From NCBI RefSeq assembly GCF_009936135.1, contig NZ_CP047901.1:152984-216983 (forward strand): a DNA stretch of 64,000 nucleotides, in the 5' to 3' direction. The notes below the pieces were generated by a model, which was not told the DNA's origin, did no database searches, and was given only the letters and a program-made list of their open reading frames with translations. Positions 23,277 to 58,010 of the stretch are shown piece after piece (the first letter of the stretch is position 1; every line of letters begins with the position of its first letter). This DNA comes from Candidatus Chazhemtobacterium aquaticus. Lineage in GTDB: Bacteria; Patescibacteriota; Microgenomatia; UBA1400; Chazhemtobacteraceae. The position numbers were made by a program, and so were the translations under genes.

Positions 23277-23359
23277 CCTTTATACAACTGAAAAAATCCA
23301 CCCCTTTCTTTGGGTGGTTCATCAAACTGCGCCTAATATATCATTGCTTCTCATCTTTT

Positions 23360-25298: not shown

Positions 25299-25313
25299 CA
25301 TCCATATCCATTA

Positions 25314-25403
25314 GGTGGGGTGCAGGAGTGGTTGAACTGGTCGCTCTCGAAAAGCGATGTAGGCGCAAGCTTACCGTGGGTTCGAATCCCACCCCCACCG
25401 CCA
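25314..25403 (+). tRNA. tRNA-Ser (anticodon CGA)
   Basis: Acceptor GGTGGGG/CCCCACC, anticodon stem TCGCT/AGCGA with loop CT-CGA-AA, long variable arm, T-arm GTGGG-TTCGAAT-CCCAC. CCA encoded. Confidence 0.75.
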
Positions 25404-25419
25404 AATTTCATTCCCTCTA

Positions 25420-25491
25420 GCCCTCATAGTTTAATGGATAAAACAACGGTTTCCGGAACCGTAGCTGGAGGTTCGATTCCTCCTGGGGGCA
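25420..25491 (+). tRNA. tRNA-Arg (anticodon CCG)
   Basis: Acceptor GCCCTCA/TGGGGGC, D-arm GTTT-AATGGATA-AAAC, anticodon stem ACGGT/ACCGT with loop TT-CCG-GA, T-arm GGAGG-TTCGATT-CCTCC. Confidence 0.75.
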
Positions 25492-25570
25492 CTTCACCAC
25501 CAAATCAAACATCACCAGATCTCCCTAAATCTACTACTCAATAAAACAAGTCTTGGCCTTGGTATAATAA

Positions 25571-25656
25571 ACAAACTCCGGAGGAGTCAGATAGCGGTCC
25601 ATTCTGCCTGCTTGGAAAGCAGGTGTGCGCAAGCACACGTGGGTTCGAATCCCACC
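25571..25656 (+). tRNA. tRNA-Ser (anticodon GGA)
   Basis: Acceptor GGAGGAG/CTCCTCC, anticodon stem CCTGC/GCAGG with loop TT-GGA-AA, long variable stem-loop GTGTGC-GCAA-GCACAC, T-arm GTGGG-TTCGAAT-CCCAC. Confidence 0.75.
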
Positions 25657-25678
25657 TCCTCCGCCCCGTATAACCTAT

Positions 25679-26203
25679 CTACTCCAACGGAACTTTCTCA
25701 TTAAACCAACTCACCATCTTGTCTATTCTCGTCACAGTAGGCACCTCCCACTCCAGATACTCACTCAACACTCTCTTAACATCGTTTTCATTTACTCCAC
25801 CGCTCTTAGGTAACACCATTACCAACCTTGTCGGCCACCGTCGATATGTCATCACGTGCAATACCTTTCTACCTTCCTGCTCATCAATCCAATAATTGCC
25901 TAGCTCATCCCAAACATATCTTGCCCCTTCAGTCACAATTCCTTTATTCGTAATCTGATGCATCACTATTCTCGGCTCTGCATTAATCAATGCATACCCT
26001 ACAAATAAAATTGCCGCCACCACCAACACTGGCATAATTCCTTCAATGAAAAACAACACAATACCTACTAAGATCGCCAACACCATCATTGTGCTATAAA
26101 AATCCCTCGACTTCTTTATAGCCAACCTCTCCTCAGCTTCCCATCGCAACAACTCTCTCTCCTGACCATAATCCTGCACCACCTCTCCTTTCTTTTTCTC
26201 CAT
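25679..26203 (-). CDS. hypothetical membrane protein (2 TM)
   Basis: 174-aa ORF. Confidence 0.4.
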   Translation of the reverse strand: MEKKKGEVVQDYGQERELLRWEAEERLAIKKSRDFYSTMMVLAILVGIVLFFIEGIMPVLVVAAILFVGYALINAEPRIVMHQITNKGIVTEGARYVWDELGNYWIDEQEGRKVLHVMTYRRWPTRLVMVLPKSGGVNENDVKRVLSEYLEWEVPTVTRIDKMVSWFNEKVPLE

Positions 26204-26266
26204 ACCTTAATCGTATCATTTTTCCTCTTCTCACCAACCACACTAAAATACTTTAAATAATTACTC

Positions 26267-26351
26267 TGCGGAGACGGTGGGATTCGAACCCACGTGTCCC
26301 GTTAAGGACGCGGGTTAGCAACCCGCTGCCATCGGCCTCTAGGCGACGTCT
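26267..26351 (-). tRNA. tRNA-Ser (anticodon GCT)
   Basis: Minus strand: acceptor GGAGACG/CGTCTCC, anticodon stem GCGGG/CCCGC with loop TT-GCT-AA, long variable arm, T-arm GTGGG-TTCGAAT-CCCAC. Confidence 0.75.
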
Positions 26352-26369
26352 CCATGCTTATACATTCTA

Positions 26370-26996
26370 TCATGCCACCAGCCTCAGAACGCCTGAAGCC
26401 CACCTCGAATAAATCCCCATCAACCTGATATTCATCGAATAATCATAGTATCTCAAGCTACACGTTCCATGATAAACGCTCCTATACTTCCCACCAACCT
26501 TCCTCGTCACTTTAGGTCTGTAGAACCGTGACACAGGGATTGACAAAACGCCTGACCAAAACCCAATAACCTCCGACCTGTCGTGAGACTCATGAATCTG
26601 CAACCATACCCTAAATTTAGTCTCATCAAGAACAAACCCTCTTCTCAACAAACCAATAAAAACTTTTTGCATTTGCTCATCACTACTTGTAAACCCGAGG
26701 TGTGTCGTTGATGGATATTTACTTCCTTCACACCAATACAAAATTGCAGCCAAAACTCGAGCCTCGTCATCCCTCAAACTATCAACACTAACTCTATCCA
26801 TTCTGTAAAATCTCATTCTCTTTAAATGATTTTTCCTAACCAAACCATTTCTTTTCACCACCGACCTACCCAAATCGTTACACCAACAACTCACCATCGA
26901 GGGGTGCACTCCCAATTTTGACGCTATGGCCCTGTAACACCAACCCTCATCCCTAAGTTTCCTTGCTAAAACCACCTTAGACTCTCTCCCAACCAT
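26370..26996 (-). CDS. free-standing HTH plus LAGLIDADG-like homing-endonuclease-family protein
   Basis: N-terminal HTH (VLARKLRDEGWCYRAIASKLGVHPSMVSCW) and a single LAGLIDADG-like motif LAAILYWCEGSK. It sits between tRNA-Ser(GCT) and tRNA-Ser(TGA). Confidence 0.45.
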   Translation of the reverse strand: MVGRESKVVLARKLRDEGWCYRAIASKLGVHPSMVSCWCNDLGRSVVKRNGLVRKNHLKRMRFYRMDRVSVDSLRDDEARVLAAILYWCEGSKYPSTTHLGFTSSDEQMQKVFIGLLRRGFVLDETKFRVWLQIHESHDRSEVIGFWSGVLSIPVSRFYRPKVTRKVGGKYRSVYHGTCSLRYYDYSMNIRLMGIYSRWASGVLRLVA

Positions 26997-27037
26997 ACTA
27001 TTACCCTAACAAAACCCAAACACGCAGTCAACTACCT

Positions 27038-27122
27038 GGCGGTGGGGACAGGACTCGAACCTGCAAGCCCTTGCGGGCGCCAGTTTTCAAGACTGGTTCC
27101 TTACCATTCGGAGCACCCCACC
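27038..27122 (-). tRNA. tRNA-Ser (anticodon TGA)
   Basis: Minus strand: acceptor GGTGGGG/CCCCACC, anticodon stem CCAGT/ACTGG with loop CT-TGA-AA, long variable arm, T-loop TTCGAGT. CCA encoded. Confidence 0.75.
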
Positions 27123-27151
27123 AACACCATAATTTTACCATTTTTCAGCCT

Positions 27152-27805
27152 CTAGCCTGCCAAGGCCCATCCACCCACCCATCTTGCACCTCCCTTCTTA
27201 AGCACCTTAGCTACCTCCTTCATAGTTCCTCCTGTTGTCACTACATCATCTACCACCACCAATCTCTTCCCCTTAATCAACTCCATATTTACCAGCTCAA
27301 ATGCTCCCAAAATCTCCCTTTCCCTCTCATTTTTTCCCATCTCTGCCACAGGCCTGGTCGCTTTTTTTCTTTTAACCACTTCCAACACCTTAACACCCCA
27401 ACTCTCTGCCAAAATCTCAGCCAACATCATTGCTTGATTAAAACCTCTCCAGTTCTCTCTTACTCTATGTAGTGGCACCGGCACCACCCCATCCACTCTC
27501 ATAAAAACCTGTCTCCTTCCATACTCTCCCACGCACTCTCTAAGCAACTGGTGTCTAAACCGGTACTTAACTGCCTTAATTACCCTCTGCATCAATCCTT
27601 CATATCTAAAAACTCTAAAAACCGCATCTAGGCCCAACTCTTTACAACACCTCTTGTGAGTCCGACCACCAATCGAACCTTTTCTACACTCAACACAAAC
27701 CTGCCTCGCCTTAACTAACCTCAATCTACACCCCTCACACAACTCCACCCCCTCCTTACCACAACCAGCGCACTTAACTGGAAACAACCACTCCCATCCT
27801 CTCAC
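27152..27805 (-). CDS. comF: ComF-family phosphoribosyltransferase-domain protein
   Basis: N-terminal Cys4 zinc-finger CAGCGKEGVELCEGCR...CVEC, and a C-terminal PRTase motif RLVVVDDVVTTGGTMKE. Confidence 0.65.
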   Translation of the reverse strand: MRGWEWLFPVKCAGCGKEGVELCEGCRLRLVKARQVCVECRKGSIGGRTHKRCCKELGLDAVFRVFRYEGLMQRVIKAVKYRFRHQLLRECVGEYGRRQVFMRVDGVVPVPLHRVRENWRGFNQAMMLAEILAESWGVKVLEVVKRKKATRPVAEMGKNEREREILGAFELVNMELIKGKRLVVVDDVVTTGGTMKEVAKVLKKGGARWVGGWALAG

Positions 27806-27857
27806 TCTTATATCCTAAACCAAAAAAAAGACGCCCCCTAAAGGCGCCTTTCTTTTC

Positions 27858-28247
27858 TTGGTGGAGACGGTGGGAGTCGAACCCACGTCCGCAAACAATC
27901 TTTAATCAGCTTCTACAAGTTTAGTCTGTCTTTACTACTACCCGACAACAGCCGACAAACAGGTTTCATTATCAGGAGATGATTTTTTACTTAAGAAAGA
28001 CTCAATCACCTTCTTTCCTGCAGCTTGAGTATTTTCCACTCCTAGAGTTGCCCCAAGCATCTCCTCTAAGCGTGTCTTAGGCAGCGTAAGCGAAAGCGAA
28101 CGCAGCTTCAGAAGCGGGCTCACCTAAAGGTGAGTCGCTGGCTGAGATGATTTTATCCTCAGTTGTTTTTTTTAAGCCGTTTTACGAGTTGTGCCTAGCT
28201 CGACTTGCCGCTGTCAAAGTTCATCCACGTCAAAATCCTGACGTCCC
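27858..28247 (-). ncRNA. ssrA: tmRNA (ssrA)
   Basis: The minus strand begins GGGGACGTCAGGATTTTGACGTGG... and ends ...GTGGGTTCGACTCCCACCGTCTCCACCA, a tRNA-Ala-like T-arm and acceptor with a G3:U70 pair. The internal tag frame ...GEPASEAAFAFAYAA ends in TAA. smpB lies about 320 bp away. Confidence 0.8.
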
Positions 28248-28311
28248 CAATAGGAAACATTCTATCATCTTTAGCCTCAAAAATCAACTAAATAGCCCGA
28301 TATACCAACTA

Positions 28312-38322: not shown

Positions 38323-38386
38323 CCCCAAACCAGCTCTCACCCCAAGACCCATCTTCACCTCTACCCAAACCAGGCTAAAATGAATT

Positions 38387-41773: not shown

Positions 41774-43564
41774 ATGCTCAAGAAAATCCTTCTCACTTTC
41801 ACCACTCTCTGCCTGTTTTTTACCTTATCCATTCCCGCTCATGCTCAAACAGACACTAAAGACATCTTAAGAGATTTCTGCGACAGTCGCCAAGGCAATG
41901 TTATCAATCTAGAAACCTGGTATGCCGGCAGATGCGATCCTGAGAGTGAAACATCAACTTTCATGGGTCAAAACCGCGGCTTTGGAGATATTGTCATCCT
42001 CCATCTCTATGAACTGATAAATGGCGAGCAAAACAAGGCAGATGAGGATATGATCAAAGACTTCTTCGAGTCCCTTGTTGACACCATTTCTCAAAACAAC
42101 GGCTTTAATTATCTCACCTACATTCAAGAAAATAATGCCACATTCAAAAACACATCATCGAACTCAGGTATGATATCCCAAATTAGTGGTGGCATTTCCT
42201 ACTTAATCTCAACCCCTCCGGCGAGTACCCAACAATATATCGCCTACATCAATAACAACCTCCAAAGACATAGCCTAACCCAACCAGCATACGCTCAAAA
42301 CGCCACTGGAGAAGGTGGTGGATATGGCTTTGCCCGTCTTGAAGGTTTTCTACCTCTCTGGAAAGCTTTCCGCAACATAGCCTACTTCTTCTTCATTCTC
42401 GCATTCGTCATCTACGGCTTCATGATCATGTTCCGTGTCAAAATTAACCCTCAAACAGCTGCCAATATTCAACTAGCTCTTCCTAAACTAATAGTCACCC
42501 TCATCCTCATCACCTTTTCCTATGCCATAGTCGGTCTACTTATCGACTTTATGTGGGTTGGTTACTATCTTATACTCAACACCTTAGACAGCTTTGGAGT
42601 CTTTGGAGAATCCAAAGGAGTACTTGGGTTCGTCAATGATATATTCCGCGGCCTCGCCTCAGGAGGAGGCGGACTAATCCTCACCTCAATTTTCCAAACA
42701 ATTTTAGCTGTTTACGCCGGCGTGCCTGGAACCTTAGGAGCCCTCACCGGAATATCTGGAAACATATTTACCATTATTATGGCACTCACTACTTTTACCG
42801 GCATAGGGCTAATTCTCATCCTTATCATACTCATTGCCGTCATTATCGCCCTCATTAAGCTATTTGTTAAACTTGTCACTGCTTACGTCACCATCTTTAT
42901 CAACCTAGTTCTTTCTCCCCTCATACTTCTTAGCGGTATTTTTCCCGGCAAGAATGACGTTTTTAGTACTTGGATTACCAACCTTGTTGCTAACATTATT
43001 GTCTTCCCTGTCGCCTCCATCCTTCTTCTTTTCTCCGGATATTTTATGACCCAACCAGTCGCCTCCTTAATCCAGGATACATTAAATGGTTTAGCAAACA
43101 TAATCCCCGGAATAGACGGGAATGTCTCACTGTCCCTAATAGAAAACACCCAAAGAATTCCTAACGTCCCCCTCCTATCACCTCAAACTGAGTGGCTTAG
43201 TAATTTTCCTATAATAGGAAGCGCGGTTGCCGCTGGAGCGTCCGAGTGGTATGCCCTGATAGGCCTCGCTCTTCTCCTCATGTCACCTAAGTTCGTAGAT
43301 ATGGTCATGGATGCCTTCAAAGTCAAACCATTCCCCTACGGTTCTGCTGCCATAGAATCTTTAACCGCAGGCTACAAAGCTGAGGCGGGCTTAATTGGTA
43401 AAGCTACTGAAGAAGGAGGGGTGTTAGCGAGAAGATTGCCTAGGTTTAGCAGTAAACTTAGAGGTAGGCAGGAGCAAATCGACACAAGCGTCAACATCCT
43501 CTCAGGAGGAAAAGTCAAACCAGCCGGCACTGAAGGAGATCAAACTCCAGTTAGTAGGTCATAA
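41774..43564 (+). CDS. VirB6/TrbL-like polytopic inner-membrane T4SS component with N-terminal signal peptide and ~190-aa extracytoplasmic domain
   Basis: Signal peptide MLKKILLTFTTLCLFFTLSIPAHA|QTD, followed by at least 6-7 hydrophobic helices (e.g. IAYFFFILAFVIYGFMIMF, LIVTLILITFSYAIVGLLIDFMWVGYYLIL, GIGLILILIILIAVIIALIKLFV...). Confidence 0.5.
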   Translation: MLKKILLTFTTLCLFFTLSIPAHAQTDTKDILRDFCDSRQGNVINLETWYAGRCDPESETSTFMGQNRGFGDIVILHLYELINGEQNKADEDMIKDFFESLVDTISQNNGFNYLTYIQENNATFKNTSSNSGMISQISGGISYLISTPPASTQQYIAYINNNLQRHSLTQPAYAQNATGEGGGYGFARLEGFLPLWKAFRNIAYFFFILAFVIYGFMIMFRVKINPQTAANIQLALPKLIVTLILITFSYAIVGLLIDFMWVGYYLILNTLDSFGVFGESKGVLGFVNDIFRGLASGGGGLILTSIFQTILAVYAGVPGTLGALTGISGNIFTIIMALTTFTGIGLILILIILIAVIIALIKLFVKLVTAYVTIFINLVLSPLILLSGIFPGKNDVFSTWITNLVANIIVFPVASILLLFSGYFMTQPVASLIQDTLNGLANIIPGIDGNVSLSLIENTQRIPNVPLLSPQTEWLSNFPIIGSAVAAGASEWYALIGLALLLMSPKFVDMVMDAFKVKPFPYGSAAIESLTAGYKAEAGLIGKATEEGGVLARRLPRFSSKLRGRQEQIDTSVNILSGGKVKPAGTEGDQTPVSRS

Positions 43565-43618
43565 AACCCCAATACAACTTACTCAACCCGTCATGGTGTA
43601 CAAACTAATCACCACCAA

Positions 43619-46147
43619 CTACCTGCCAGCTGAAGGAACCGCTCTCGAATCAAATTTCCTTTGTCGCTCAAGCTTAGCCTTCTTTCTATCACCCTCATTC
43701 CTACTCGACCCAAAAACCAAAACGGTCTTCCCCCAAACCAATTCTGCGTACCTCCGAAAGTCGCTCATTACTCTCACACTTCGTTCATAAGCCTCCATGT
43801 CCTCCTCGTATTGTTCATTGGACGCATACTCTTCAGGCACTGGTTTCTTACTCAAAGCAAAAAAACCCGAATCAAGCGCTCTGTGAAAAGCCATTCTTAC
43901 GTTACCTGGGTCATTAAACTGATTAGCCTTTTGGTTATACGGACTGTAATACCATAACAAGGATTTTGCATACAACAACTTCACCAAATCAGCCTCTTCA
44001 GGCGTCAACACACCCTGCGCTTTAAGTGCTTCAATTTTAATTTTCCATCCAACCCACATACCTTCAGTAGTTAACTCTTGTTGCTTAACCTCGGGAATCT
44101 TGATCACCATCTCCCATACCCCCTTAGAAGCAACTGCCGCAGTCACCATGTTCTCGTATGGCGATCTATCCATTTCGGACAAGGCTAATCTAGATATCAA
44201 TCTGCCCTCACGGATTAAATTCCATCCATTTTGCCCTGACACAGTCATCAACTCAAACCCATCCTTCATTAACCTAGGAATGTCTCCCCCACCTCTTTCA
44301 TACTTCTCTCCTTCTGCTCCACTCAAGAATCTATCAAGCGCTCCCCAAAACCGACCTGGCCCTGACTCTCTCTCACTCTTCAAAAACTCACCTACCGGTA
44401 ATATACCCTTCTCTAAAAACTTCTGTCTAAAATTTACCGCATTATATAGAGGATGGCCAGGCCACAATCCTGCCTCCGCCTCATGGCTTTGCCAAAAATC
44501 CCAAGCGAGATCCAAAGCGTCGCGAACTCCTGGGCTACCTCCACCAAAGGCTTGAATCATTCTACGCCTCACCTCATTTCTGCTCGCATCAGTCAGCTCC
44601 CCACCTGGAGCATACCCCCCCCTCTCCACCTCAGTATACAACCACTGCAATGCCCTATCCATTAACGCCACTGAAAATCCTCCAGCCTCTTGCATCCTAC
44701 CCAAAACCACATAATCGGGCACCCTCAAACCCACCTGATCCCACTCTGGTTTTTTCATCAACTCCTGCCAATTCTCCACCCATGTCGAGTAATCCCCACC
44801 TTTTCTCGCCACCATGCCATTATGCAGCCTTACTCGCATCCCAATCTCCGCTTCCAACACCTCTCTGTACGCCCCCATCACCTCGGGAACACGATATCTA
44901 GCAAAACCTAAATCAATTACCCCAATTCCTGACATCAGCTCACTTGGGTCTACAAAATCCATTGAGTTAGACAATCTCTGTCTTACCAACCTTCTAACCT
45001 CAACAAACAATTCCTCACGCGATGCAGGCAACTCAACCACACCAGAGTCACTCTCCACTGAACCACTATCTCTGCCAACCGCACTTCTGGCTCTAACCTC
45101 ATCTCTTCTTCCAACATACTCCTCATATCTCCCTGATCTTCTTATCTCTCTCATCACATTCCTTCTCACACTTCGATTCATATATCCTCTATCCCTATAC
45201 TCAGCCATCCAGTCAATCAACAGACCAACGTCACCATCTTCAGCCAATGCATCCATCGCCGCATAATACTCTCCCTCAAAGTTCTGGATGTCTCTCATAA
45301 TCTCAGGATTATCTCTCACATCCTTTCTTATCTCCGAACAACTACCACACCTTAACCCTCCGTCGTTATGACCTCCACAGCTATCGCAATCAAACGGCGT
45401 TCCCCAATAAGGCTCCTCCATTGGCTCTTCATCATCATCTTCTTTTCTCTCTCCATTACCACCATCAGGGGGTGGAGGCACCCCATCCCCTCTACCACCT
45501 TCCCCATTATTCCTTCTGTTGCCACCCCCTCGTCCACCTCCTTCAGTTTCACCTCCACCTCCACCACCCCCACTATCTCCACTCACCGGATCTAATGACT
45601 GGTTAGGCACAGCAATATTCATTCTAGCTTGCGCAATTTCCTCGTCGGTCATTGGCCTATGTCCTTCTTCACCGTCATCACTACCAGTGTTATCGCTTTC
45701 ACTCTCATTCACACTCTCACTTCGAGGGGGAGTCCACTCCTCCCAACTCTCAGGTACGCTCGCTTTTATCCTCTCCTTTACATCTCCTCTAACTGGAAAA
45801 CCATTCTTGTTAATATTCTCCATCTCTCTCACGAATCCTGCATGCACCTGCGCTCGTAACACCTGTCGTTCCTCAATTTCTTCTGGCGTTGGACCTATTC
45901 TCTGCTCCAATACCCCCAATCTCACCACTCCCTCTCTTTTGCCCAAACCAATCATTGTCCTTAGCTCCATATCACTCGCTTTTCTATCCGGATTAATCAC
46001 ATTGACCGTCTGACCACCCCTCTCCTCAGTCACAAACATACCTTTCAACTCATCCCTCAAAGCATCTCCGGAGTTTTCCAAAACCTGAACCACAGTTTCC
46101 TGTCTTCGTCTTTCTCGTTCCATATCTGACTGAGCCTTCTCACTCAT
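43619..46147 (-). CDS. hypothetical 842-aa protein with Gly-rich low-complexity segment and Cys4 zinc-ribbon-like motif
   Basis: Minus-strand ORF inside the + strand locus. Contains GGGGGGGETEGGGRGGGNRRNNGEGGRGDG and CDSCGGHNDGGLRCGSC. No recognised family. Far longer than the low-complexity + strand ORFs overlapping it. Confidence 0.4.
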   Translation of the reverse strand: MSEKAQSDMERERRRQETVVQVLENSGDALRDELKGMFVTEERGGQTVNVINPDRKASDMELRTMIGLGKREGVVRLGVLEQRIGPTPEEIEERQVLRAQVHAGFVREMENINKNGFPVRGDVKERIKASVPESWEEWTPPRSESVNESESDNTGSDDGEEGHRPMTDEEIAQARMNIAVPNQSLDPVSGDSGGGGGGGETEGGGRGGGNRRNNGEGGRGDGVPPPPDGGNGERKEDDDEEPMEEPYWGTPFDCDSCGGHNDGGLRCGSCSEIRKDVRDNPEIMRDIQNFEGEYYAAMDALAEDGDVGLLIDWMAEYRDRGYMNRSVRRNVMREIRRSGRYEEYVGRRDEVRARSAVGRDSGSVESDSGVVELPASREELFVEVRRLVRQRLSNSMDFVDPSELMSGIGVIDLGFARYRVPEVMGAYREVLEAEIGMRVRLHNGMVARKGGDYSTWVENWQELMKKPEWDQVGLRVPDYVVLGRMQEAGGFSVALMDRALQWLYTEVERGGYAPGGELTDASRNEVRRRMIQAFGGGSPGVRDALDLAWDFWQSHEAEAGLWPGHPLYNAVNFRQKFLEKGILPVGEFLKSERESGPGRFWGALDRFLSGAEGEKYERGGGDIPRLMKDGFELMTVSGQNGWNLIREGRLISRLALSEMDRSPYENMVTAAVASKGVWEMVIKIPEVKQQELTTEGMWVGWKIKIEALKAQGVLTPEEADLVKLLYAKSLLWYYSPYNQKANQFNDPGNVRMAFHRALDSGFFALSKKPVPEEYASNEQYEEDMEAYERSVRVMSDFRRYAELVWGKTVLVFGSSRNEGDRKKAKLERQRKFDSRAVPSAGR

Positions 46148-46207
46148 CTGGGCAGTAAAAATAACCTATAACTACCTCTAGATTTTAACATACTTACCCT
46201 CAAACAA

Positions 46208-47330
46208 CACCTGGGTGTACAGGTTACACACATATTGGACTTTTCGGGGTTTGGTAATTGATATTGTAACCGATGACTTGTGAAGGGGTTTGATCAGCTA
46301 AAGATTCATGGATTCGGTCGTGGTGATAGAAGGTAAGATACTCTTTGATTCGCTGGTTGATGAGTTTAAGATCTAGCATTTCATCCTGATATTGATCAAG
46401 GCAATCTTCCTGGATCGTTCGGTTGAATCTCTCAACTACTCCGTTGATCTTAGGAGAGTGAGGATAGGTCCAGCAATGCTTAATCTTTTGTTGCTGGCAG
46501 TATTGATCAAAGACTCCTTCAAACTCACTACCATTGTCTGTTTGGACGGTGTGAATTGATACCGGTAGGACACTGGCAATGGTCTTTAATACCTCAAGAG
46601 CGTTCCTGGCATGTTTGGTAGTAAAGGTTTGAGCGTAGACAACCTTTAACTTAACATCAATAGCAGTAATGGTGTAACGCCTAATCCCATCAATAATGGT
46701 TTCAATGGTGTCTAACTCTACATATCCTCCAGTTTCTGGTTTAGGAGCCTTGTTTACTCTCGTTTTCTGTTTCTTTTGAGGCTGCTTTCTCCCCGGATCA
46801 TGGTAACCAAAGGTGGGTTGATCGTAGAAGAGACGATTCCGTTTGATGATCTTGCCAATGGTAGATTCCTTAGGAGCAACAAGACCTAAACTATCGGTAT
46901 ATCGTTTAACAAGAGGGTAGAGTTTGTGTTTACCCAAGCGGTAATGGGTTTTTCTTAACCTACAGATTTCCGCTAGAACCAGAGGATGGGTGTTCATCTG
47001 GCGAAACACTTTAGGGCGAGTAGTCTTGGGAATTAAGGAGGACAATTTACCTCTACTTTCCTTTAACGTTTTCTGCCAAAGAAACAAAGTGCTTCTTTTA
47101 ACCGGAAAAGCAGACAAAGTGGCAGCCAAACCAAACCGATGGTAGTGGGTGATGACTCGCAAGCGATATCGGGCAGTTTCAGAATCAGCAAAGGCTGAAG
47201 TGGAAACAACTTTTTTCATCCAGACATTGTAGCCAGGACGTCTGGGGAGAATGGTTCTAAGTCTGTCTGTTTCGTGACTCATATGGACTTTCCCTAGTCC
47301 AATATGTGTCGTAACTTATGCACTGGGCTA
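46208..47330 (-). mobile_element. IS481-family insertion sequence (IS3 superfamily) with imperfect terminal inverted repeats
   Basis: A single 352-aa transposase ORF at 46224..47282 is flanked by GTTACACACATATTGGAC (46223..46240) and its inverted copy GTCCAATATGTGTCGTAAC (47298..47316). The + strand here is G-rich, opposite to the rest of the window. Confidence 0.6.
46224..47282 (-). CDS. IS481-family DDE transposase (HTH plus rve integrase core)
   Basis: rve core ...TVQTDNGSEFEG...HSPKINGVVERFNRTIQEDCL... (D, D, 35-E spacing). N-terminal HTH. Single uninterrupted ORF of ~350 aa, as expected for IS481. Confidence 0.65.
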   Translation of the reverse strand: MSHETDRLRTILPRRPGYNVWMKKVVSTSAFADSETARYRLRVITHYHRFGLAATLSAFPVKRSTLFLWQKTLKESRGKLSSLIPKTTRPKVFRQMNTHPLVLAEICRLRKTHYRLGKHKLYPLVKRYTDSLGLVAPKESTIGKIIKRNRLFYDQPTFGYHDPGRKQPQKKQKTRVNKAPKPETGGYVELDTIETIIDGIRRYTITAIDVKLKVVYAQTFTTKHARNALEVLKTIASVLPVSIHTVQTDNGSEFEGVFDQYCQQQKIKHCWTYPHSPKINGVVERFNRTIQEDCLDQYQDEMLDLKLINQRIKEYLTFYHHDRIHESLADQTPSQVIGYNINYQTPKSPICV

Positions 47331-47363
47331 TACTAGTTTCATTACCAACCAAGCTTAAGGCAT

Positions 47364-48353
47364 ATGCCCGTCCAACAGCATCCCATCCCCCAAAACGTCA
47401 CCAGCTATCAATTCCGCTTAGTTGGCGACATGACTCTCAAACAATTTCTCCAGCTAGCAGCTGGCATAGTCATTGGTCTAGTTATCTACGCCACCCCCCT
47501 TCCTTCCTTCTTCAAATGGCCTCTCATCTCTATCATTGTTGGCCTTGGTGCTGCCATTGCCTTTGTCCCTGTTCAGGGCCGACCCTTGGATCAATGGATT
47601 GTTGCCTTTATCCGCTCCATCTACGCTCCCACCATCTATGTCTGGCAAAAACCCAACAACCAACAACCATCTCTAAACCAAGCTCCCACCTCCATTACGC
47701 AGGCTCTACAATCCTCTCCCCCCACTAGTCCTTCCCCCACTGCCACTCAACCTCAAACCTCAAAAATCGAGCGCCCTAATTTAGTCCCTCAAATCCACAC
47801 CTTAACCAGAGCTACTCCACCCACTCCCAACCCTACTCCACCACCCCAACCCGAACCCCTCATCCCCACTAGCCAAGATATCAAAAAATCAGCCAAAAAC
47901 GTATTTGCTTCACCACCAAAACCAATTGCTGTCACTCCGCAATCTCATCAAAACACCAATCATCAATCAACTCAATCCTCTTCTAAGCCCGCTCCAACCA
48001 CCTCTACCGCTACTGTTTCCGATACACCAGCTCAACCAGGAACCTCCGCTTCCTTCTCAACCGACCTCCCCATCCCCAGCACCCCTCAAACCCCCAACAC
48101 TATCGTTGGCATGACTCTCTCCCCACAGGGTAAAATCCTGGAATCAGTCATTGTTGAGATCCTTAAAAACGGTCAGACCATCCGCGCCACCAAAAGCAAC
48201 AAGCTCGGCCAGTTTCTCTTTGCCAAACCTCTTGATGACGGAATCTTCCAGATTACTGCCGACAAAGACGGTTTCACTTTTCCCCGCTTCGATCTTAAAC
48301 TAGACGGTCAAATCATTCCCCCAATTAAACTCCAAGCCACAGGTACAAAATAA
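47364..48353 (+). CDS. PrgI/VirB3-like T4SS membrane protein fused to a Pro/Thr-rich linker and a C-terminal CarboxypepD_reg-like beta-sandwich domain
   Basis: N-terminal ~100 aa (SYQFRLVGDMTLKQFLQLAAGIVIGLVIYATPLPSFFKWPLISIIVGLGAAIAFVPVQGRPLDQWIVAFIRSIY) fits the PrgI/VirB3 two-TM pattern and precedes VirB4 as in Gram-positive-type T4SS. The C-terminus ...ILESVIVEILKNGQTIRATKSNKLGQFLFAKPLDDGIFQITADKDGFTF resembles CarbopepD_reg/Cna-B folds. Confidence 0.45.
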   Translation: MPVQQHPIPQNVTSYQFRLVGDMTLKQFLQLAAGIVIGLVIYATPLPSFFKWPLISIIVGLGAAIAFVPVQGRPLDQWIVAFIRSIYAPTIYVWQKPNNQQPSLNQAPTSITQALQSSPPTSPSPTATQPQTSKIERPNLVPQIHTLTRATPPTPNPTPPPQPEPLIPTSQDIKKSAKNVFASPPKPIAVTPQSHQNTNHQSTQSSSKPAPTTSTATVSDTPAQPGTSASFSTDLPIPSTPQTPNTIVGMTLSPQGKILESVIVEILKNGQTIRATKSNKLGQFLFAKPLDDGIFQITADKDGFTFPRFDLKLDGQIIPPIKLQATGTK

Positions 48354-48354
48354 C

Positions 48355-49476
48355 ATGATCGACAAAGCCATCAAAGCTACCACCCAAGAACATCTTGATA
48401 TTTACACCATCAAAGAACACTTTGTTATCTTAAAAGACGGTTCAACTGCTCTAGTTCTTCAAATTTCTGCCATAAACTTTGGTCTTCTCTCTGAGGAAGA
48501 ACAAGATGCTCTCATCTTCTCCTACGCCTCACTCCTAAACTCTCTTTCCTTTCCTATCCAAATCATTGTCCGCTCCGTCAAAAAAGATATCACTTCATAC
48601 TTAGAGCTTCTTGATGATCGTCTCGAACAAACCTCTTCTCAAAAGCTCAAAGAGCAGATCGTCAAATACCGCAGCTTCATCAGGAGTCTTGTTAAAAAGA
48701 ACAAAGTTCTTGAAAAAAAATTCTACGTCGTCATCCCTTACAGCTATCTAAGTGTCAATCAAGTCTCCAACAACCTTAATCCACTCGCTAAACCACCCCA
48801 AAAACCACCCCAAGATGTTGACTTTCTCGTTGCCAAATCCAAACAAGAACTCTATCCTCGTCGCGACCACCTCATTCGTCAATTTGCTCGTTTAGGCCTC
48901 CAGTGTCGCCAACTCACCACTCAAGAGCTAGTTACCCTTTTCTACAAAACCTACAACCCCTCCACTCAAGGCATTGAGCAATATCTCACTCTACCCACTG
49001 ACTATGAAACCCCAGCCGTTCAAACCAAAGTCAGAAATCTGTACACCGAAAAAGACACTCCCACTACCCCTATCGCCCCAACACCAACGGCTCCTACTCC
49101 TTCTCCAACCACCCCCACTCAACCCACGACTCCAACTCCACCCATTCCCCCTATTACTCCACACCAAACTACCACCACCCCTCAAAACCAACCTCATTCA
49201 CCTACTCCTCAACCAGTAACTCCACCCAATCCTTCTCCTATCACACCACCAACTCAACCAACCTTTTCTTCTCCATCACCCTCTCCATTACCATCTCCAT
49301 CGCCCACACCCCCGCCAGCCTCACCAACACAAAACCAAACTCTATCCATGCCCACTCCACCATCTACACCCACTAACCCAAACCCCCAAACCTCTCCACC
49401 TCCCGACCCAGCCGACTCAGTTATCCCTCCCTCCCCTCCGGTCACCTCACCGCCTCCACCTTTTCCTTTCTCGTAA
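48355..49476 (+). CDS. VirB4/TrbE N-terminal domain (CagE_TrbE_VirB-like) followed by a Pro/Thr-rich tail; first half of a split VirB4
   Basis: ...LDIYTIKEHFVILKDGSTALVLQISAINFGLLSEEEQDALIFSYASLLNSLSFPIQIIVRS... (the hallmark L.KDGS region of the VirB4 N-domain), then ~160 aa of PTPS low complexity ending at a TAA. Confidence 0.5.
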   Translation: MIDKAIKATTQEHLDIYTIKEHFVILKDGSTALVLQISAINFGLLSEEEQDALIFSYASLLNSLSFPIQIIVRSVKKDITSYLELLDDRLEQTSSQKLKEQIVKYRSFIRSLVKKNKVLEKKFYVVIPYSYLSVNQVSNNLNPLAKPPQKPPQDVDFLVAKSKQELYPRRDHLIRQFARLGLQCRQLTTQELVTLFYKTYNPSTQGIEQYLTLPTDYETPAVQTKVRNLYTEKDTPTTPIAPTPTAPTPSPTTPTQPTTPTPPIPPITPHQTTTTPQNQPHSPTPQPVTPPNPSPITPPTQPTFSSPSPSPLPSPSPTPPPASPTQNQTLSMPTPPSTPTNPNPQTSPPPDPADSVIPPSPPVTSPPPPFPFS

Positions 49477-55160: not shown

Positions 55161-56270
55161 TCAACTCTGTACTCTCACTGGCATAATAATATGGACCCAT
55201 TCTTCACCCTCTTCTCGAAAAACTCCTGGTTTCAATGATCCCTCGCTTTCAATTATTACCTTATTCGCTCTCACCACTCCTAAATACTCAAGCAAATACC
55301 GACTGTTAAATGCCATCTCTACCTCCTCACCCTCAGTCTCAACATCTATACCAGTCTCACTACTTCCCAACTGCGGACTGTTAGCACTCACCTTTAGCTG
55401 ATTATCACCCATCTTCACCTTCACAATATTTGCACTCTCCCTAGCGAATATAGATGCCCTTTTAACCGCCTCTGTTAGCTCTTCCCGACTTACCAACACT
55501 CGAGTCGAATAACTCTCCGGCATTATCTGTTCAAAGGGCGGAAAATCGCCAGCAAGCAACCGGCTCACTATCTCAATCTCACCAATCTTAAAAATTACCT
55601 GTTGTTTATTAATCTCAAACTTAATCAACACTGTTTTAACTTCCTGTTTATCTACTATTCTTACCAACTCCAACAATGCTCTTGCTGGCAAAATCAGCTT
55701 ACTCAAGCCCTCCTTTTCAACCGATAATCTTAAACCTCCAATCCCCAGTCTGTATCCATCAGTCGCCACCAATCGAATTCTATCCTTCTCAAACTTCCAC
55801 AACACTCCCATTAACACCGGACGCGCATCGTCTTTAGCAACAGCCACACCAACTCGCTCTATTTCCTCAACCAACTCTTCTACTCCAATTTCAATATCAC
55901 ATTTACCTGAAAAACTCGGAATCGAAGGATACTCTCCCGAAGCCATACCTGCCACCATAGACCTAATTCCATTAGTCTCTATCACCAAACTATCTTTATC
56001 AACTTCTAAATCAACCGGACCAGCTGGTAATGTCCCCACCAGCTCACTCAACACCCTTCCTGAAACACTCACTTCACCTTCCTCTCTAACCTTTGCCCCT
56101 ACTTTAATCCGAAAACTAATCTCTAAATCAGTACTTAAAATCTCAACTCCACCAGCCGTTGATCTGATCAATACATTTGCCAACACTGGCAATTGAGGTC
56201 TACTCGCCACTCCTCTACCAACCACAGCAAGCGCATTACTTAAGCGTTCATTCAAAATCGTTACTTTCAT
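55161..56270 (-). CDS. dnaN: DNA polymerase III beta sliding clamp DnaN
   Basis: MKVTILNERLSNALAVVGRGVASRPQLPVLANVLI... with the three-domain length typical of DnaN. Located immediately downstream of dnaA. Confidence 0.85.
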   Translation of the reverse strand: MKVTILNERLSNALAVVGRGVASRPQLPVLANVLIRSTAGGVEILSTDLEISFRIKVGAKVREEGEVSVSGRVLSELVGTLPAGPVDLEVDKDSLVIETNGIRSMVAGMASGEYPSIPSFSGKCDIEIGVEELVEEIERVGVAVAKDDARPVLMGVLWKFEKDRIRLVATDGYRLGIGGLRLSVEKEGLSKLILPARALLELVRIVDKQEVKTVLIKFEINKQQVIFKIGEIEIVSRLLAGDFPPFEQIMPESYSTRVLVSREELTEAVKRASIFARESANIVKVKMGDNQLKVSANSPQLGSSETGIDVETEGEEVEMAFNSRYLLEYLGVVRANKVIIESEGSLKPGVFREEGEEWVHIIMPVRVQS

Positions 56271-56591: not shown

Positions 56592-58010
56592 TCAATTTGA
56601 ACCATAGATTTCTTGTTTCATTCTAATTACCTGTTCTCTAACCTCCTGATTGATACCAATCTCTCTCTCCATTTTCTCTACCGCGTGCATTACTGTCGTA
56701 TGATCCCTTCCTCCCATTAACTGAGCCACGTTCTGAAGTGTTAAACCCATCTCTTCTCTGAGTAAATACATGGCAATATGTCTTGCTCGTACCAGTTCCG
56801 CTCTCCTGCTTTTACCCACAATCTCCTTGTTTTTACACTCAAACTGCTTAGCCACCAAACTTATTAGCTGCTGAGGCCTTAATTTCTTAACCTCCCTTTT
56901 CGCACTTACTCCAATCTCCTTCTCCACCAAATCCTTAGTTAAATAACCATTGCCAAGAGTAGCCGCATTTACCAGTCTAGTTAAAATCCCCTCCAACTCT
57001 CTTGCGTTAGTGTTTACACTACTTGCGATTAACTCCAATGCTTCATTATCTGCATCCGTTTTTAGTTCACTACACTTCTGTTTTAATATAGCCAGCCGCA
57101 TTTCATAATCCGGTAATCCAATATCAACTGTCAGTCCGCCCAAGAATCTAGAAATCAATCTTTGCTCCACTTGTTCAATATCCTGAGGCCTACGGTCAGA
57201 CGTCAGGATAATTTGCTTACCCTTCATATACAACTCGTTGAAGGTGTGAAAAAACTCCTCCTGAGTACTCTCCTTTCCTGCGATAAACTGAACGTCGTCA
57301 ATTAACAACACATCAACATTCCTATATTTTTTCTTAAAACTATCAACACTCTTGCTTCTAATTGTCGCAATCAGCTCATTAGTAAACTGCTCACTAGTTA
57401 CTGCTCTCACCTTCATCCCCTTGGCTAACAACATCCTTCCCACGGCGTGCATTAAGTGTGTTTTTCCTACCCCTACTCCACCCCACAAAAACAAGGGATT
57501 GTGTTTTACTCCCGGACTGTCCGTCACTCCTTTGGCTGCCGCGTAAGCCAAGTTATTCGACCCTCCAACCACAAAGTTTTCAAAACTAAATCTAGGGTTA
57601 AGCCCCACCTCAATCAGTTGTTGAGAATCAAACTCACTTTCCTTATCCTCGCTAAACAAGTCATTAGCCTCTTCATTTTCTGGCTCCACACTTTCGATTC
57701 TTTGTTTTACAACCAATCCAATCTCACACCTTTTACCTACTTGTCGTTCCAGTATTTGTTTAATTTGTCCATAATATCTTTCATCAATCGTTCGCAAGTG
57801 AAATCCTGACGGACACGCCAGCTCTATCAACCACCTCTCCGCATCTATTTCATTTATAGAATCAATAAAACACGGCTTAACCCAGGATGAAAAAGCAGCT
57901 GGAGATATGCTCACCTCAAGCTCTCCTAATACATTTTTCCAAATCTCGTTACTGTCCAGATTATCGATCATTTTCATCGCTACTCTATCCAAGTTTTCCA
58001 CAACTGCCAA
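56592..58010 (-). CDS. dnaA: chromosomal replication initiator DnaA
   Basis: AAA+ Walker A GGVGVGKTHLMHAVG. Walker B VDVLLIDDVQF. C-terminal DNA-binding domain ...LVRARHIAMYLLREEMGLTLQNVAQLMGGRDHTTVMHAVEKM. Confidence 0.9.
   Translation of the reverse strand: MAVVENLDRVAMKMIDNLDSNEIWKNVLGELEVSISPAAFSSWVKPCFIDSINEIDAERWLIELACPSGFHLRTIDERYYGQIKQILERQVGKRCEIGLVVKQRIESVEPENEEANDLFSEDKESEFDSQQLIEVGLNPRFSFENFVVGGSNNLAYAAAKGVTDSPGVKHNPLFLWGGVGVGKTHLMHAVGRMLLAKGMKVRAVTSEQFTNELIATIRSKSVDSFKKKYRNVDVLLIDDVQFIAGKESTQEEFFHTFNELYMKGKQIILTSDRRPQDIEQVEQRLISRFLGGLTVDIGLPDYEMRLAILKQKCSELKTDADNEALELIASSVNTNARELEGILTRLVNAATLGNGYLTKDLVEKEIGVSAKREVKKLRPQQLISLVAKQFECKNKEIVGKSRRAELVRARHIAMYLLREEMGLTLQNVAQLMGGRDHTTVMHAVEKMEREIGINQEVREQVIRMKQEIYGSN

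What the first reader, a model, noticed from the sequence alone, without database searches (positions are those of the whole stretch)
46208..47330. IS481-family element inserted within the T4SS-like locus with inverted strand composition
A single-ORF rve transposase is flanked by 19-bp inverted repeats, GTTACACACATATTGGAC and GTCCAATATGTGT(C)GTAAC. The element separates the pilin/VirB6 half from the VirB3/VirB4 half. Over the element the + strand is G-rich, whereas everywhere else in the window it is C-rich. The transposase coding strand therefore carries the same C/A-rich bias as resident + strand genes, but in the opposite orientation. That is consistent with a recent transposition from the other strand or another replichore. 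It may have split an ancestral operon.
Basis: seen in the sequence. Interest (0 to 1): 0.6.

Follow-up and report, generated by a model that had tools for sequence, protein, structure and literature searches.

The report
Promoter-seeking IS481-like insertion sequence
This is an intact, recently inserted 1.1-kb jumping gene in a tiny-genome groundwater bacterium; the element is ordinary, but it and its relatives are almost always found exactly five bases upstream of a gene's promoter, which looks like a way of inserting without damaging genes.

Summary
Window 46216-47322 is a 1107-bp IS481-like insertion sequence. It has one 352-aa DDE transposase on the - strand, imperfect 26/27-nt terminal inverted repeats (TGC…ACA), and a 5-bp target duplication, CTGGG. 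Six contigs from near-identical strains carry the empty site with a single CTGGG, so the insertion is recent.

The source is Ca. Chazhemtobacterium aquaticus Ch65, whose genome paper reported no mobile elements.

The + strand GC skew over the element is +0.11, the only positive 1107-nt window in 64 kb. It is not a mirror image of resident genes. This genome has no oppositely skewed replichore, and every near-identical copy elsewhere has the same composition. The anomaly therefore marks an unameliorated newcomer, not a strand flip.

The element did not split an operon. It sits in a ~109-bp divergent intergenic region that exists in IS-free strains.

One unexpected result: at 26 independent junctions of this family, the flank beyond one fixed end reads 5 nt, then a -35-like hexamer, 17 nt, then a -10-like hexamer. 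ISKpn28-like relatives in proteobacterial plasmids mostly do the same. I found no description of this among the papers I could search.

The parts
46216..47322 (-). Complete insertion sequence, 1107 bp, oriented by its transposase gene
   Evidence: Homology to independent copies (L002, 97.2%; L033-L042, 98.0-98.2%) starts and stops exactly at these bases. Empty-site alleles join 46215 directly to 47328, with a single CTGGG between the flanks.
47296..47322 (-). IRL, the inverted repeat upstream of the transposase: TGCATAAGTTACGACACATATTGGACT
   Evidence: The same terminus is found in relatives down to 54% aa identity. It resembles the ISKpn28 IRL, TGTGTAAGTTCACACAGATATTGCAATT.
46216..46241 (+). 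IRR, the inverted repeat at the transposase-distal end: TGTACAGGTTACACACATATTGGACT when read inward. It contains the transposase stop codon.
46211..46215 (.). Target-site duplication, left copy (CTGGG)
   Evidence: The sequence is present once in the empty sites of L027-L032.
47323..47327 (.). Target-site duplication, right copy (CTGGG)
46224..47282 (-). DDE transposase, 352 aa (RefSeq uses the start at M22, 47219, giving 331 aa). Catalytic residues: D191 (46710-46712), D249 (46536-46538), E284 (46431-46433).
   Evidence: Pfam rve_3/rve and NCBIfam IS481. D191, D249 and E284 are invariant in 13 homologues; codons checked. The protein is QHO63193.1 / WP_161931586.1.
46182..46210 (-). Host promoter-like site immediately outside IRR: -35-like GTGTTG (46210-46205), 17-nt spacer, TGn-extended -10 TAAAAT (46187-46182). 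Inferred promoter of the 842-aa gene.
   Evidence: It is in the same register as the -35/-10 motifs at 26 independent junctions of this IS family, and it is host DNA because it is present in the empty-site strains. Promoter function is inferred, not shown. It scores 7/12 against the consensus, below the scanner's threshold.
43619..46147 (-). Downstream co-oriented host gene (842 aa, unknown function). Its ATG lies 68 nt beyond the IS end.
   Evidence: homologues of 764-883 aa in related strains; codon-position skew typical of resident - strand genes.
47364..48353 (+). PrgI-family gene, first gene of the + strand T4SS-like block. Its ATG lies 41 nt from the IS.
   Evidence: Pfam PrgI, E 1.6e-08; distance.

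Best explanation
Window 46216-47322 is an intact, probably active insertion sequence. It belongs to an ISKpn28-like branch of the IS481 family that is widespread in Patescibacteria (CPR).

Its single DDE (DD-35-E) transposase recognises the TG…CA-tipped inverted repeats and integrates with staggered cuts 5 bp apart, which produces the CTGGG duplication. A copy-out-paste-in pathway is inferred only from the family's kinship with IS3.

The element entered the Ch65 lineage's ~109-bp divergent spacer between the 842-aa gene and the PrgI-led T4SS-like block after Ch65 split from strains that are ~99% identical at this locus. It has had no time to take on the chromosome's extreme C-over-G strand bias, which is why it stands out in skew.

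Its position and orientation are not random. Elements of this family are found with their transposase-distal end (IRR) exactly 5 bp upstream of the -35 hexamer of a sigma-70-type promoter, with the transposase co-directional with the downstream gene. Here that is the TGn-extended TAAAAT promoter-like site of the 842-aa gene.

The association is shown. I infer that target choice by the transpososome is the cause, through either direct reading of a TTGAC-like motif or capture of promoter-bound RNA polymerase/sigma. In gene-dense genomes, purifying selection probably sharpens the pattern. The likely benefit is insertion that leaves both the coding sequence and the targeted promoter intact. The divergent PrgI promoter may have been displaced as a side effect; that was not tested.
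For: Identity and boundaries.

Insertion event: six empty-site contigs from two sample series align to both flanks, and the two alignments overlap by exactly the 5-nt CTGGG.

Mobility:
- The same 1107-bp element (98.0-98.2% identical to the window copy) is found at seven other sites with perfect 5-bp duplications: TGGAG, GAAAC, AGGGG, TTGTC, AAAGT, TCGCC, TAAAG.
- These include three copies with identical sequence in one 850-kb genome.
- A 65%-identical relative has the duplication TCACC.
- Many homologues sit on ~1.1-kb stand-alone contigs.

Composition: skew statistics; the same intrinsic skew in every copy.

Promoter register, from 26 distinct IRR-side junctions:
- Mean match to TTGACA-N17-TATAAT is 8.38/12 at the offset just after the duplication, against 1.96-4.27 at 20 other offsets and 3.0-4.0 for IRL-side flanks.
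- 0 of 20,000 shuffles reach the observed value (maximum 4.85).
- T at +6 in 24/26, A at +30 in 25/26, T at +34 in 25/26.
- The annotated start codon is often 6-10 nt after the -10, as expected for leaderless genes.
- Similar -10-to-ATG spacing occurs at other genes in this window.

Proteobacterial and campylobacterotal relatives, with their 5-bp duplications:
- CACTC then TTGACT-17-TATCGT, upstream of cvi.
- AATAA then TTGACT-18-TAAAAT.
- GCACA then TTGACT-17-TAGGTC.
- TCTCC then TTGCCT-17-TATCCT.
- A solo end then TTGATC-17-TATAAT.
Against: - The window's own -35-like hexamer is weak (GTGTTG, 2/6); only its extended -10 is good.
- Two of 26 CPR junctions score 6/12 or less.
- Two ISKpn28-type sites show no promoter (L069; pSTW0522-39-1 position 46557). 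Both look rearranged.
- ISKpn28 has been recovered inside the mgrB ORF under colistin selection (PMC6101004), so targeting is not absolute.
- No transcription start sites are known for these organisms, and sigma-70 consensus use in CPR is assumed.
- Many metagenomic contigs are chimeric across copies: their left and right flanks do not match. I therefore analysed junctions one side at a time.
- Post-insertion selection in very compact genomes could produce part of the pattern.
- The NCBIfam IS481 score (164) is below the curated cut-off (224).
- Transposase activity and the transposition pathway are inferred, not shown.
Confidence: 0.85

Rival explanations
1. The element is an old resident of this chromosome that recently hopped from the opposite strand or from another replichore, and so carries the mirror-image mutational signature.
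For: Over the element the + strand is slightly G-rich (+0.113) while every other part of the window is C-rich. Third-position skew of the transposase (-0.235) has the same sign as that of resident + strand genes.
Against: - The magnitude is about one third of resident genes.
- The chromosome has a single uninterrupted skew with no opposite replichore (PMC7143001), and there is no flip across dnaA/dnaN in the window.
- The exact protein is on record at only one place in the 801,504-bp genome, so no donor copy is visible.
- Copies 98.0-98.2% identical to the window copy, in other genomes, have the same skew (-0.116 to -0.120) whatever their site.
- More distant family members in weakly skewed hosts range from -0.15 to +0.07, so the value is intrinsic to the family.
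Confidence: 0.05
2. The promoter association results only from purifying selection. The IS inserts more or less at random, or with only a trivial preference, and in ~0.8-Mb genomes that are nearly all coding only insertions just upstream of promoters survive.
For: CPR genomes are extremely compact (838 genes in 801 kb). Plague 2010 (PMC2942039; abstract only) hypothesises that intergenic ISs are non-randomly placed because insertions upstream of genes can hit regulatory sites. In less constrained plasmids one ISKpn28 site keeps the -35-like TTGACT but lacks a -10, so the -10 signal could owe something to selection.
Against: - Selection alone does not explain a single-nucleotide register (26 junctions, sharp peak at one offset).
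- It does not explain the strict orientation, with the promoter always on the IRR side.
- It does not explain the lack of insertions downstream of genes or further upstream.
- Six copies identical in sequence, hence very young, already obey the rule.
- The same register appears on large accessory plasmids, where most DNA is dispensable.
Confidence: 0.15
3. The ORF is a fixed or domesticated integrase-like host gene, or a remnant of an integrated element belonging to the T4SS island, and is no longer a mobile IS.
For: The GenBank record calls it a hypothetical protein, and the genome paper reports no mobile elements. It is single-copy in Ch65.
Against: It has intact inverted repeats, a perfect target duplication and an intact DDE triad. 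Empty sites exist in sister strains, and multiple identical copies occur at other loci in related genomes.
Confidence: 0.02

Closest known systems
ISKpn28 and ISKpn28-like IS481-family elements of enterobacterial plasmids
   Same: - Best named match: 34-36% aa identity over ~90% of the transposase.
- About 1.1 kb with a single ORF.
- Similar terminal repeats (TGTGTAAGTTCACA…ATATTGCAA against TGCATAAGTTACGA…ATATTGGAC).
- 5-bp target duplications.
- Most sites examined have a -35/-10-like pair in the same register beyond the same end.
   Different: - Distant in sequence, and the host phylum is different (Patescibacteria).
- Termini are TGC/TGT…ACA rather than TGT…ACA.
- ISKpn28 has also been reported inside an ORF (mgrB +91) under selection.
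- I found no published description of a promoter preference for ISKpn28.
IS481 (Bordetella pertussis) and the IS481 family as defined in ISfinder
   Same: A single DDE transposase related to IS3 OrfB and lacking a frameshift; TG…CA / TGT…ACA termini; short target duplications in the family's 2-15-bp range (PMC10045372).
   Different: - Most IS481 members make 6-bp duplications; this one makes 5 bp.
- From my own knowledge, IS481 itself prefers the palindrome NCTAGN, not promoters.
- The NCBIfam IS481 profile score is below the curated cut-off.
IS3 family (IS2 subgroup)
   Same: DD(35)E core, TG…CA ends, and 5-bp duplications in the IS2 subgroup. The copy-out-paste-in mechanism I assume by analogy comes from this family.
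   Different: There is no orfA/orfB pair and no in-frame slippery site. The IS3 profile scores only 79 bits against a cut-off of 160.
Promoter- or safe-site-targeting mobile elements (yeast Ty3 and Ty1 at Pol III genes, S. pombe Tf1 at Pol II promoters, Tn7 at attTn7, IS1202-subclass elements at XerCD sites) — functional analogy only, recalled from my own knowledge
   Same: Integration at a fixed distance from a transcription or recombination landmark, in a defined orientation, which avoids gene disruption.
   Different: These elements use unrelated enzymes or adaptors. No tethering factor is known here, and I found no report of a bacterial IS with single-base register to -35/-10 elements.

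Membership tests
IS481 family | DDE transposase with an RNase-H-like (rve) core and DD(35)E spacing | tested here: met
   Pfam rve_3 at 44.4 bits (cut-off 26.5) and rve at 28.5 bits (below its 32.6 cut-off). D191, D249 and E284 are invariant in 13 homologues, with D-E spacing of 35.
IS481 family | One long transposase ORF, no programmed frameshift | tested here: met
   A single ORF, 46224..47282, covers 96% of the element. The A6G run at codons 22-24 is not in the frame required for a -1 slip (sequence inspection).
IS481 family | Terminal inverted repeats with TG…CA (typically TGT…ACA) tips | tested here: met
   TGC…ACA here; TGT…ACA in the P0059/P0050-type relatives. Family definition from PMC10045372.
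IS481 family | Short target-site duplication (2-15 bp, most often 6) | tested here: met
   5 bp at this site and at 8 other CPR sites and 4 plasmid sites. This is within the family range but is not the commonest length.
IS481 family | Sequence profile match above the curated threshold (NCBIfam NF033577 transpos_IS481) | tested here: not met
   164.3 bits against a cut-off of 224. It is nonetheless the best family by a wide margin (IS3 79, IS30 35), and the match covers model positions 16-283 of 284. The nearest annotated relatives are IS481-like ISKpn28. I therefore call it IS481-like, a divergent clade. An ISfinder assignment could not be tested with these tools.
IS3 family | Two overlapping ORFs (orfA/orfB) fused by a -1 frameshift, and a profile match | tested here: not met
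   Single ORF. NF033516 scores 79.2 bits against a cut-off of 160.
Recent, mobile insertion (as opposed to a fixed gene) | An empty orthologous site in close relatives with a single copy of the duplicated target | tested here: met
   In L027-L032 the two flank alignments overlap by exactly 5 nt, and the sequences around CTGGG are base-for-base identical.
Target-specific IS (promoter-edge insertion) | A non-random, register-specific and orientation-specific sequence feature in the target DNA at independent insertions | tested here: met
   26 junctions; score peak of 8.38/12 at one offset only; 0 of 20,000 shuffles reach it; the IRL side shows nothing. Five of seven proteobacterial/campylobacterotal sites agree.
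Target-specific IS (promoter-edge insertion) | The motif is a functional promoter, and targeting is carried out by the transpososome | not testable with these tools
   This needs transcription start site mapping and transposition assays. The only indirect support is the ATG lying 6-10 nt after the -10 at many sites.

The most novel reading that the evidence does not exclude
An ISKpn28-like branch of IS481 elements, spanning Patescibacteria, Campylobacterota and Enterobacterales, actively targets sigma-70-type promoters. The transpososome would be positioned by promoter-bound RNA polymerase/sigma, or by a sigma-like reading of the -35 element. The element would then integrate exactly 5 bp upstream of the -35 hexamer in one orientation. 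This would be a bacterial counterpart of Ty3/Tf1-style promoter tethering and a 'safe-haven' strategy that lets ISs persist in minimal genomes. As a by-product, its insertion sites would mark real promoters in uncultured CPR bacteria.
Probability: 0.3. Interest if true: 0.8.

Novelty: new variant of a known kind. Interest (0 to 1): 0.55.

Why it matters
As an insertion sequence the element is ordinary, and the skew anomaly has a simple explanation: it is a young arrival in a genome with extreme strand bias. Three points go beyond that.

1. It corrects the published description of the only closed Ca. [quoted passage not shown] It also gives a dated, strain-polymorphic marker beside the T4SS-like genes.

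2. Because the chromosome's mutational strand bias is so strong, unameliorated islands such as this one are easy to spot. They could be used to time acquisitions in these lineages.

3. The fixed-register, fixed-orientation association with -35/-10 elements would be a new target specificity for a DDE insertion sequence if it reflects targeting. It can be tested directly with ISKpn28 in E. coli or Klebsiella. It bears on how transposons survive in gene-dense genomes, on IS-driven changes in promoter context on resistance and virulence plasmids (the hok/sok and colicin V loci seen here), and on promoter annotation in uncultured bacteria.

Tried and rejected
- **Genome-contig scan with the transposase.** Returned only one 30%-identical Aeromonadaceae hit, so no copy census in GTDB genomes was possible.
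- **Metagenome-contig scan with the exact IRR.** Two loci only: a solo-end remnant and a 79%-identical relative.
- **Viral-contig scan with a degenerate IRR.** Nothing found.
- **Promoter/terminator scanner on 45950-47500.** No sigma-70-like site at its 9/12 threshold, and terminator-like hits no more frequent than in shuffles. Effects on PrgI or 842-aa gene expression therefore cannot be predicted from consensus alone.
- **Rfam on 43000-49000.** No RNA family.
- **Pfam on the N-terminal 185 aa of the transposase.** No domain, so no clue to a sigma- or RNAP-binding module.
- **Polarising window-specific substitutions to look for early amelioration.** Only one private substitution, which is uninformative.
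- **Orientation bias relative to the G-rich strand.** All 8 sites with a target duplication have flanks that are on balance G-rich on the transposase strand (three only weakly). Two further junctions (L054, L055) lie in C-rich flanks. I judge this too weak to claim. It may simply follow from which promoters are hit.
- **A junction promoter in a hypothetical circular intermediate, and a hybrid PrgI promoter.** I examined both by eye only. Matches were 3/6 at best, so I do not claim either.
- **A wider census of ISKpn28 sites.** Impractical, because most of the ~2,300 plasmid hits are the same inherited hok-adjacent insertion.
Full report
**1. What is at the coordinates.**

The region holds one long ORF, 46224..47282 on the - strand, 352 aa. 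It matches the integrase-core Pfam families rve_3 and rve. Among NCBI's transposase profiles it scores best with IS481: 164 bits over model positions 16-283 of 284. IS3 follows at 79 bits. The IS481 score is still below that model's curated cut-off of 224.

Within the 64-kb window this core occurs only at those two places.

**2. Exact ends, target duplication and catalytic residues.**

I compared the element plus 150-nt flanks with independent copies recovered from public assemblies.

- With a 97.2%-identical copy at an unrelated site (L002), the alignment covers exactly 1107 bp, window 46216-47322. The flanks are unrelated.
- Copies at 77% and 69% identity (L003, L004) share the same tips, TGCATAAGT…TGTACA.

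The repeats therefore extend to the tips. IRL is TGCATAAGTTACGACACATATTGGACT (47322→47296) and IRR is TGTACAGGTTAC-ACACATATTGGACT (46216→46241). They share 23 of 26 aligned bases, with one gap.

CTGGG flanks the element directly on both sides, at 46211-46215 and 47323-47327.

D191, D249 and E284 (DD-35-E spacing) are invariant in an alignment of 13 homologues that go down to 51% identity.

The ORF starts 14 nt inside IRL, and its stop codon lies inside IRR. This is a compact, complete IS.

**3. Source organism and published annotation.**

The left-hand neighbour is 100% identical to a protein of Candidatus Chazhemtobacterium aquaticus, on an 801,504-bp contig. The transposase is QHO63193.1, 'hypothetical protein MICH65_0212'. 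RefSeq re-annotated it as a 331-aa 'integrase core domain-containing protein'.

The genome paper (Kadnikov et al. [quoted passage not shown] It also describes a near-linear fall of cumulative GC skew over the whole chromosome, with 29.8% C and 15.0% G on one strand.

The exact protein is on record at one place only in that genome.

**4. It is an insertion, and a recent one.**

Homologues of the 842-aa neighbour led to contigs from other metagenomes, SRR30949866-77 and SRR33870714. In six of them:

- window 47600→47323 aligns at 99.3% identity;
- window 46215→46131 aligns at 97.6-100% identity;
- the two alignments fall on adjacent stretches that overlap by exactly five bases.

Printed side by side, the empty sites read …caaacaacac CTGGG ctatactag…, base-for-base identical to the window's two flanks. 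Gene order around the site is the same with and without the IS.

**5. It is mobile elsewhere.**

The 90%-identity cluster of the transposase has 18 members. One of them, OQA82822.1, is seen on 67 contigs. Its loci carry the same 1107-bp element, 98.0-98.2% identical to the window copy, and six loci are identical to one another.

Three copies lie in one 850-kb genome, GCA_048500475.1.

Perfect 5-bp duplications flank the element at seven further distinct sites: TGGAG, GAAAC, AGGGG, TTGTC, AAAGT, TCGCC, TAAAG. A 65%-identical relative shows TCACC.

More than 1,200 homologues exist, mostly in Patescibacteria-type metagenomes. Many sit on contigs of ~1.1 kb, the usual signature of a repeat that assemblers cannot place.

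Where contigs lack a duplication, their left and right flanks recur in other combinations. This shows chimeric assembly across copies. For that reason I analysed junctions one side at a time.

**6. The strand-composition claim.**

| Measure | Element / transposase | Comparison |
|---|---|---|
| + strand GC skew, 1107-nt windows | +0.113 | 60,681 other windows: mean -0.363, sd 0.144, maximum -0.002 |
| Third-codon-position skew, coding strand | -0.235 | resident + strand genes -0.60 to -0.73; most resident - strand genes +0.63 to +0.86 |

The anomaly is real, but it is not a mirror image of resident genes.

The 'other replichore' does not exist in this genome. In this window the skew also stays negative across dnaN (55161..56270) and dnaA (56592..58010).

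Every near-identical copy has the same skew on its transposase strand, -0.116 to -0.120, whatever its site or host. More distant relatives range from -0.15 to +0.07.

The simplest reading is that the element carries its family's intrinsic, nearly unskewed composition. It has not been at this site long enough to be reshaped.

**7. The 'split operon' claim.**

The gene on the left (43619..46147) is on the - strand. Its codon-position skew matches other - strand genes, and it has conserved homologues of 764-883 aa. It diverges from the PrgI-family gene at 47364.

The IS lies 68 nt from the ATG of the 842-aa gene and 41 nt from the PrgI ATG. Without the IS the spacer is about 109 bp, and that is the arrangement in IS-free strains. 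So the insertion is in a divergent promoter region, not inside an operon.

The surrounding genes do look like a Gram-positive-type T4SS module:
- two T4SS_pilin-like ORFs, one of them below the Pfam threshold;
- PrgI;
- a TraC-like protein;
- a VirB4-like ATPase;
- an M23 peptidase.

'VirB6' rests only on a 596-aa protein with about seven hydrophobic segments and no profile match.

**8. An unexpected regularity in where the family inserts.**

I lined up the DNA just outside the IRR tip, in transposase orientation. Nearly every distinct junction reads: 5 nt, then a -35-like hexamer at +6..+11, 17 nt, then a -10-like hexamer at +29..+34. A TG often sits at +26/+27.

There are 26 distinct junctions from several sub-lineages, down to 54% aa identity with the window's transposase. 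The statistics below are unless another call is given.

| Quantity | Result |
|---|---|
| Mean match to TTGACA-N17-TATAAT at the offset just after the duplication | 8.38 of 12 |
| Same score at 20 neighbouring offsets | 1.96-4.27 |
| Same score for flanks outside the IRL tip | 3.0-4.0 |
| Shuffles reaching the observed value | 0 of 20,000 (maximum 4.85) |
| -35 positions | T 24/26, T 21/26, G 19/26 |
| -10 positions | T 22, A 25, A 24, A 18, T 25 (of 26) |
| IRL side | no signal |

The motif is host DNA. In the window it is GTGTTG-N17-TAAAAT with a TGn extension (46210→46182, - strand), and it is present unchanged in the empty-site strains.

The next gene downstream is co-oriented with the transposase at almost every site. 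At many sites its annotated ATG lies 6-10 nt after the -10, as expected for leaderless transcripts. The window itself contains other genes with a strong -35/-10 pair ending 5-9 nt before the start codon. The motifs therefore behave like real promoters, although no transcription start site data exist.

**9. The same rule in named relatives.**

The closest annotated elements are IS481-like ISKpn28 transposases on enterobacterial plasmids, at 34-36% identity over 90% of the protein. ISKpn28's ends resemble this element's (TGTGTAAGTTCACACAGATATTGCAATT…CCCATACA), and it also makes 5-bp duplications.

| Site | Duplication | Flank beyond IRR |
|---|---|---|
| hok-adjacent site | TCTCC | TTGCCT-17-TATCCT |
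| 76%-identical E. coli plasmid element, upstream of cvi (colicin V immunity) | CACTC | TTGACT-17-TATCGT |
| Nitrosophilus labii plasmid element (36% aa identity) | AATAA | TTGACT-18-TAAAAT, with TGn |
| K. quasipneumoniae plasmid, further site | GCACA | TTGACT-17-TAGGTC |
| Same plasmid, solo end | none | TTGATC-17-TATAAT |

Two sites do not fit: L069 and position 46557 of pSTW0522-39-1. Both look rearranged; the first has lost the hok leader and the second has no duplication.

ISKpn28 has also been found inside the mgrB ORF in colistin-resistant isolates (PMC6101004). The preference is strong but not absolute.

**10. Mechanism.**

*Shown:*
- The element's structure.
- The 5-bp staggered integration.
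- Its recent arrival.
- Its mobility in related genomes.
- A highly non-random, orientation- and register-specific association with promoter-like DNA.

*Inferred:*
- Copy-out-paste-in transposition. This rests only on the family's kinship with IS3.
- The transpososome itself chooses the site.

Two versions of site choice fit the data:
- The transposase reads a TTGAC-like motif that abuts the cut site. Selection in gene-dense genomes then enriches true promoters, which would explain the one plasmid site that has a -35 but no -10.
- The transpososome captures promoter-bound RNA polymerase/sigma. This would explain why the best-conserved positions are the ones sigma-70 reads, 23-28 bp from the cut.

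Selection alone cannot easily give a single-base register, a single orientation, compliance by sequence-identical (hence very young) copies, and the same pattern on dispensable plasmid DNA.

For the window, the rule explains both position and orientation. The IS sits just upstream of the 842-aa gene's promoter-like site and leaves it intact.

If the PrgI promoter is the TTACCC-17-TATACT pair that spans the insertion point (46194-46199 / 47329-47334), the IS has separated its two halves. That is speculative. Both the old and the new -35 candidates match only 3/6, and the scanner reports no site at its threshold.

**11. Comparison with what is known, and novelty.**

By architecture the element fits the IS481 family: TG…CA tips, a single DDE ORF, and a duplication within the family's 2-15-bp range, for which 6 bp is most common (PMC10045372). 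By profile score it is a divergent member. I file it as IS481-like, nearest the ISKpn28 group.

On IS orientation, Gómez et al. 2014 found a weak lagging-strand tendency for IS481 elements (PMC3971601). Here the eight duplication-bearing sites lie on the G-rich strand, but two other junctions do not. I leave that open.

I found no paper describing promoter-register targeting by IS481-like or other bacterial ISs in the searchable library. ISfinder/TnPedia could not be consulted, so the novelty claim is provisional.

**12. Verdict.**

Two of its interpretive points (strand or replichore origin, operon splitting) are not supported. As an IS it is a routine new member of a known family and a small correction to a published genome description.

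The added value is the promoter-edge insertion rule. It is statistically solid as an association and plausible as a targeting mechanism, and it can be tested directly with ISKpn28.

Noticed in passing
window 1-64000; dnaN 55161-56270 (-), dnaA 56592-58010 (-): The + strand is C-rich throughout (GC skew -0.36 overall, down to -0.79), and the skew does not change sign across dnaA/dnaN. This agrees with the published one-directional skew of this genome. Proteins on the + strand are rich in Pro/Thr/Ser/Gln and those on the - strand in Gly/Glu/Arg, so strand bias is shaping amino-acid composition.
   Followed up: partly
loci L033-L038, L047, window; counter-examples L054, L055: All eight insertion sites with a target duplication have the transposase on the strand that is on balance G-rich in the host flanks, though three only weakly. 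Two further junctions (a solo end and a 79% relative) lie in C-rich flanks. This could be a replication-related orientation bias, or a by-product of which promoters are hit. It is unresolved.
   Followed up: partly
window 21436-21463 (+), 38354-38381 (+), 15274-15246 (-), 7030-7002 (-): Strong -35/-10-like pairs end 5-9 nt before the start codons of the genes at 21471, 38387, 15236 and 6993. This suggests that leaderless or near-leaderless transcription is common in this organism.
   Followed up: partly
L054 6482-6510: A solo 29-nt IRR remnant, with no transposase and no IRL, is embedded in a strongly C-rich contig. A perfect TTGACT-17-TATAAT follows it directly at the usual register. It is probably a relic of a deleted copy.
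   Followed up: partly
L066 464-1562 and 1563 onward; L069, L071, L072 (record ~22.3 kb and ~71.6 kb): ISKpn28-type elements sit at the same relative position, ~13 nt from the hok start codon, in three different homologous hok loci, and once as a head-to-tail tandem pair sharing the TCTCC duplication. The promoter-like motif beyond the IRR there may be the sok antisense promoter. If so, these insertions would cut the hok mRNA leader.
   Followed up: partly
window 43619-46147 (-): The 842-aa protein of unknown function has a Gly-rich low-complexity tract (GGGGGGGETEGGGRGGGN…) and varies in length among close strains (764, 842 and 883 aa). It has no Pfam match and no predicted membrane segment, yet sits in the middle of the T4SS-like genes on the opposite strand.
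   Followed up: partly
window 20724-28248: A cluster of seven tRNA genes and a tmRNA gene (27859-28248, tag EPASEAAFAFAYAA) lies about 6 kb upstream of the first pilin-like gene. tmRNA genes are common island integration sites. I did not examine whether the T4SS-like block is an integrated element.
   Followed up: no
protein cluster of the transposase: Near-identical transposases are deposited under Burkholderiaceae and Anaerolineales MAG names, on contigs of 1.4-9 kb. These are probably binning errors caused by short repeat contigs, not evidence of host range.
   Followed up: no
L003 68-1151 and 1178-2287: A 77%-identical copy of the element lies immediately downstream of an IS3-like element (HTH_Tnp_1 plus rve ORFs), so one IS has inserted next to another.
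   Followed up: no
window 46209-46224 (- strand): The IRR tip, the duplicated CTGGG and the next flank bases form a small hairpin (ACCTG-TACACC-CAGGT) followed by a T-rich run. The scanner flagged it as terminator-like, but such hits are no more frequent than in shuffled sequence.
   Followed up: partly
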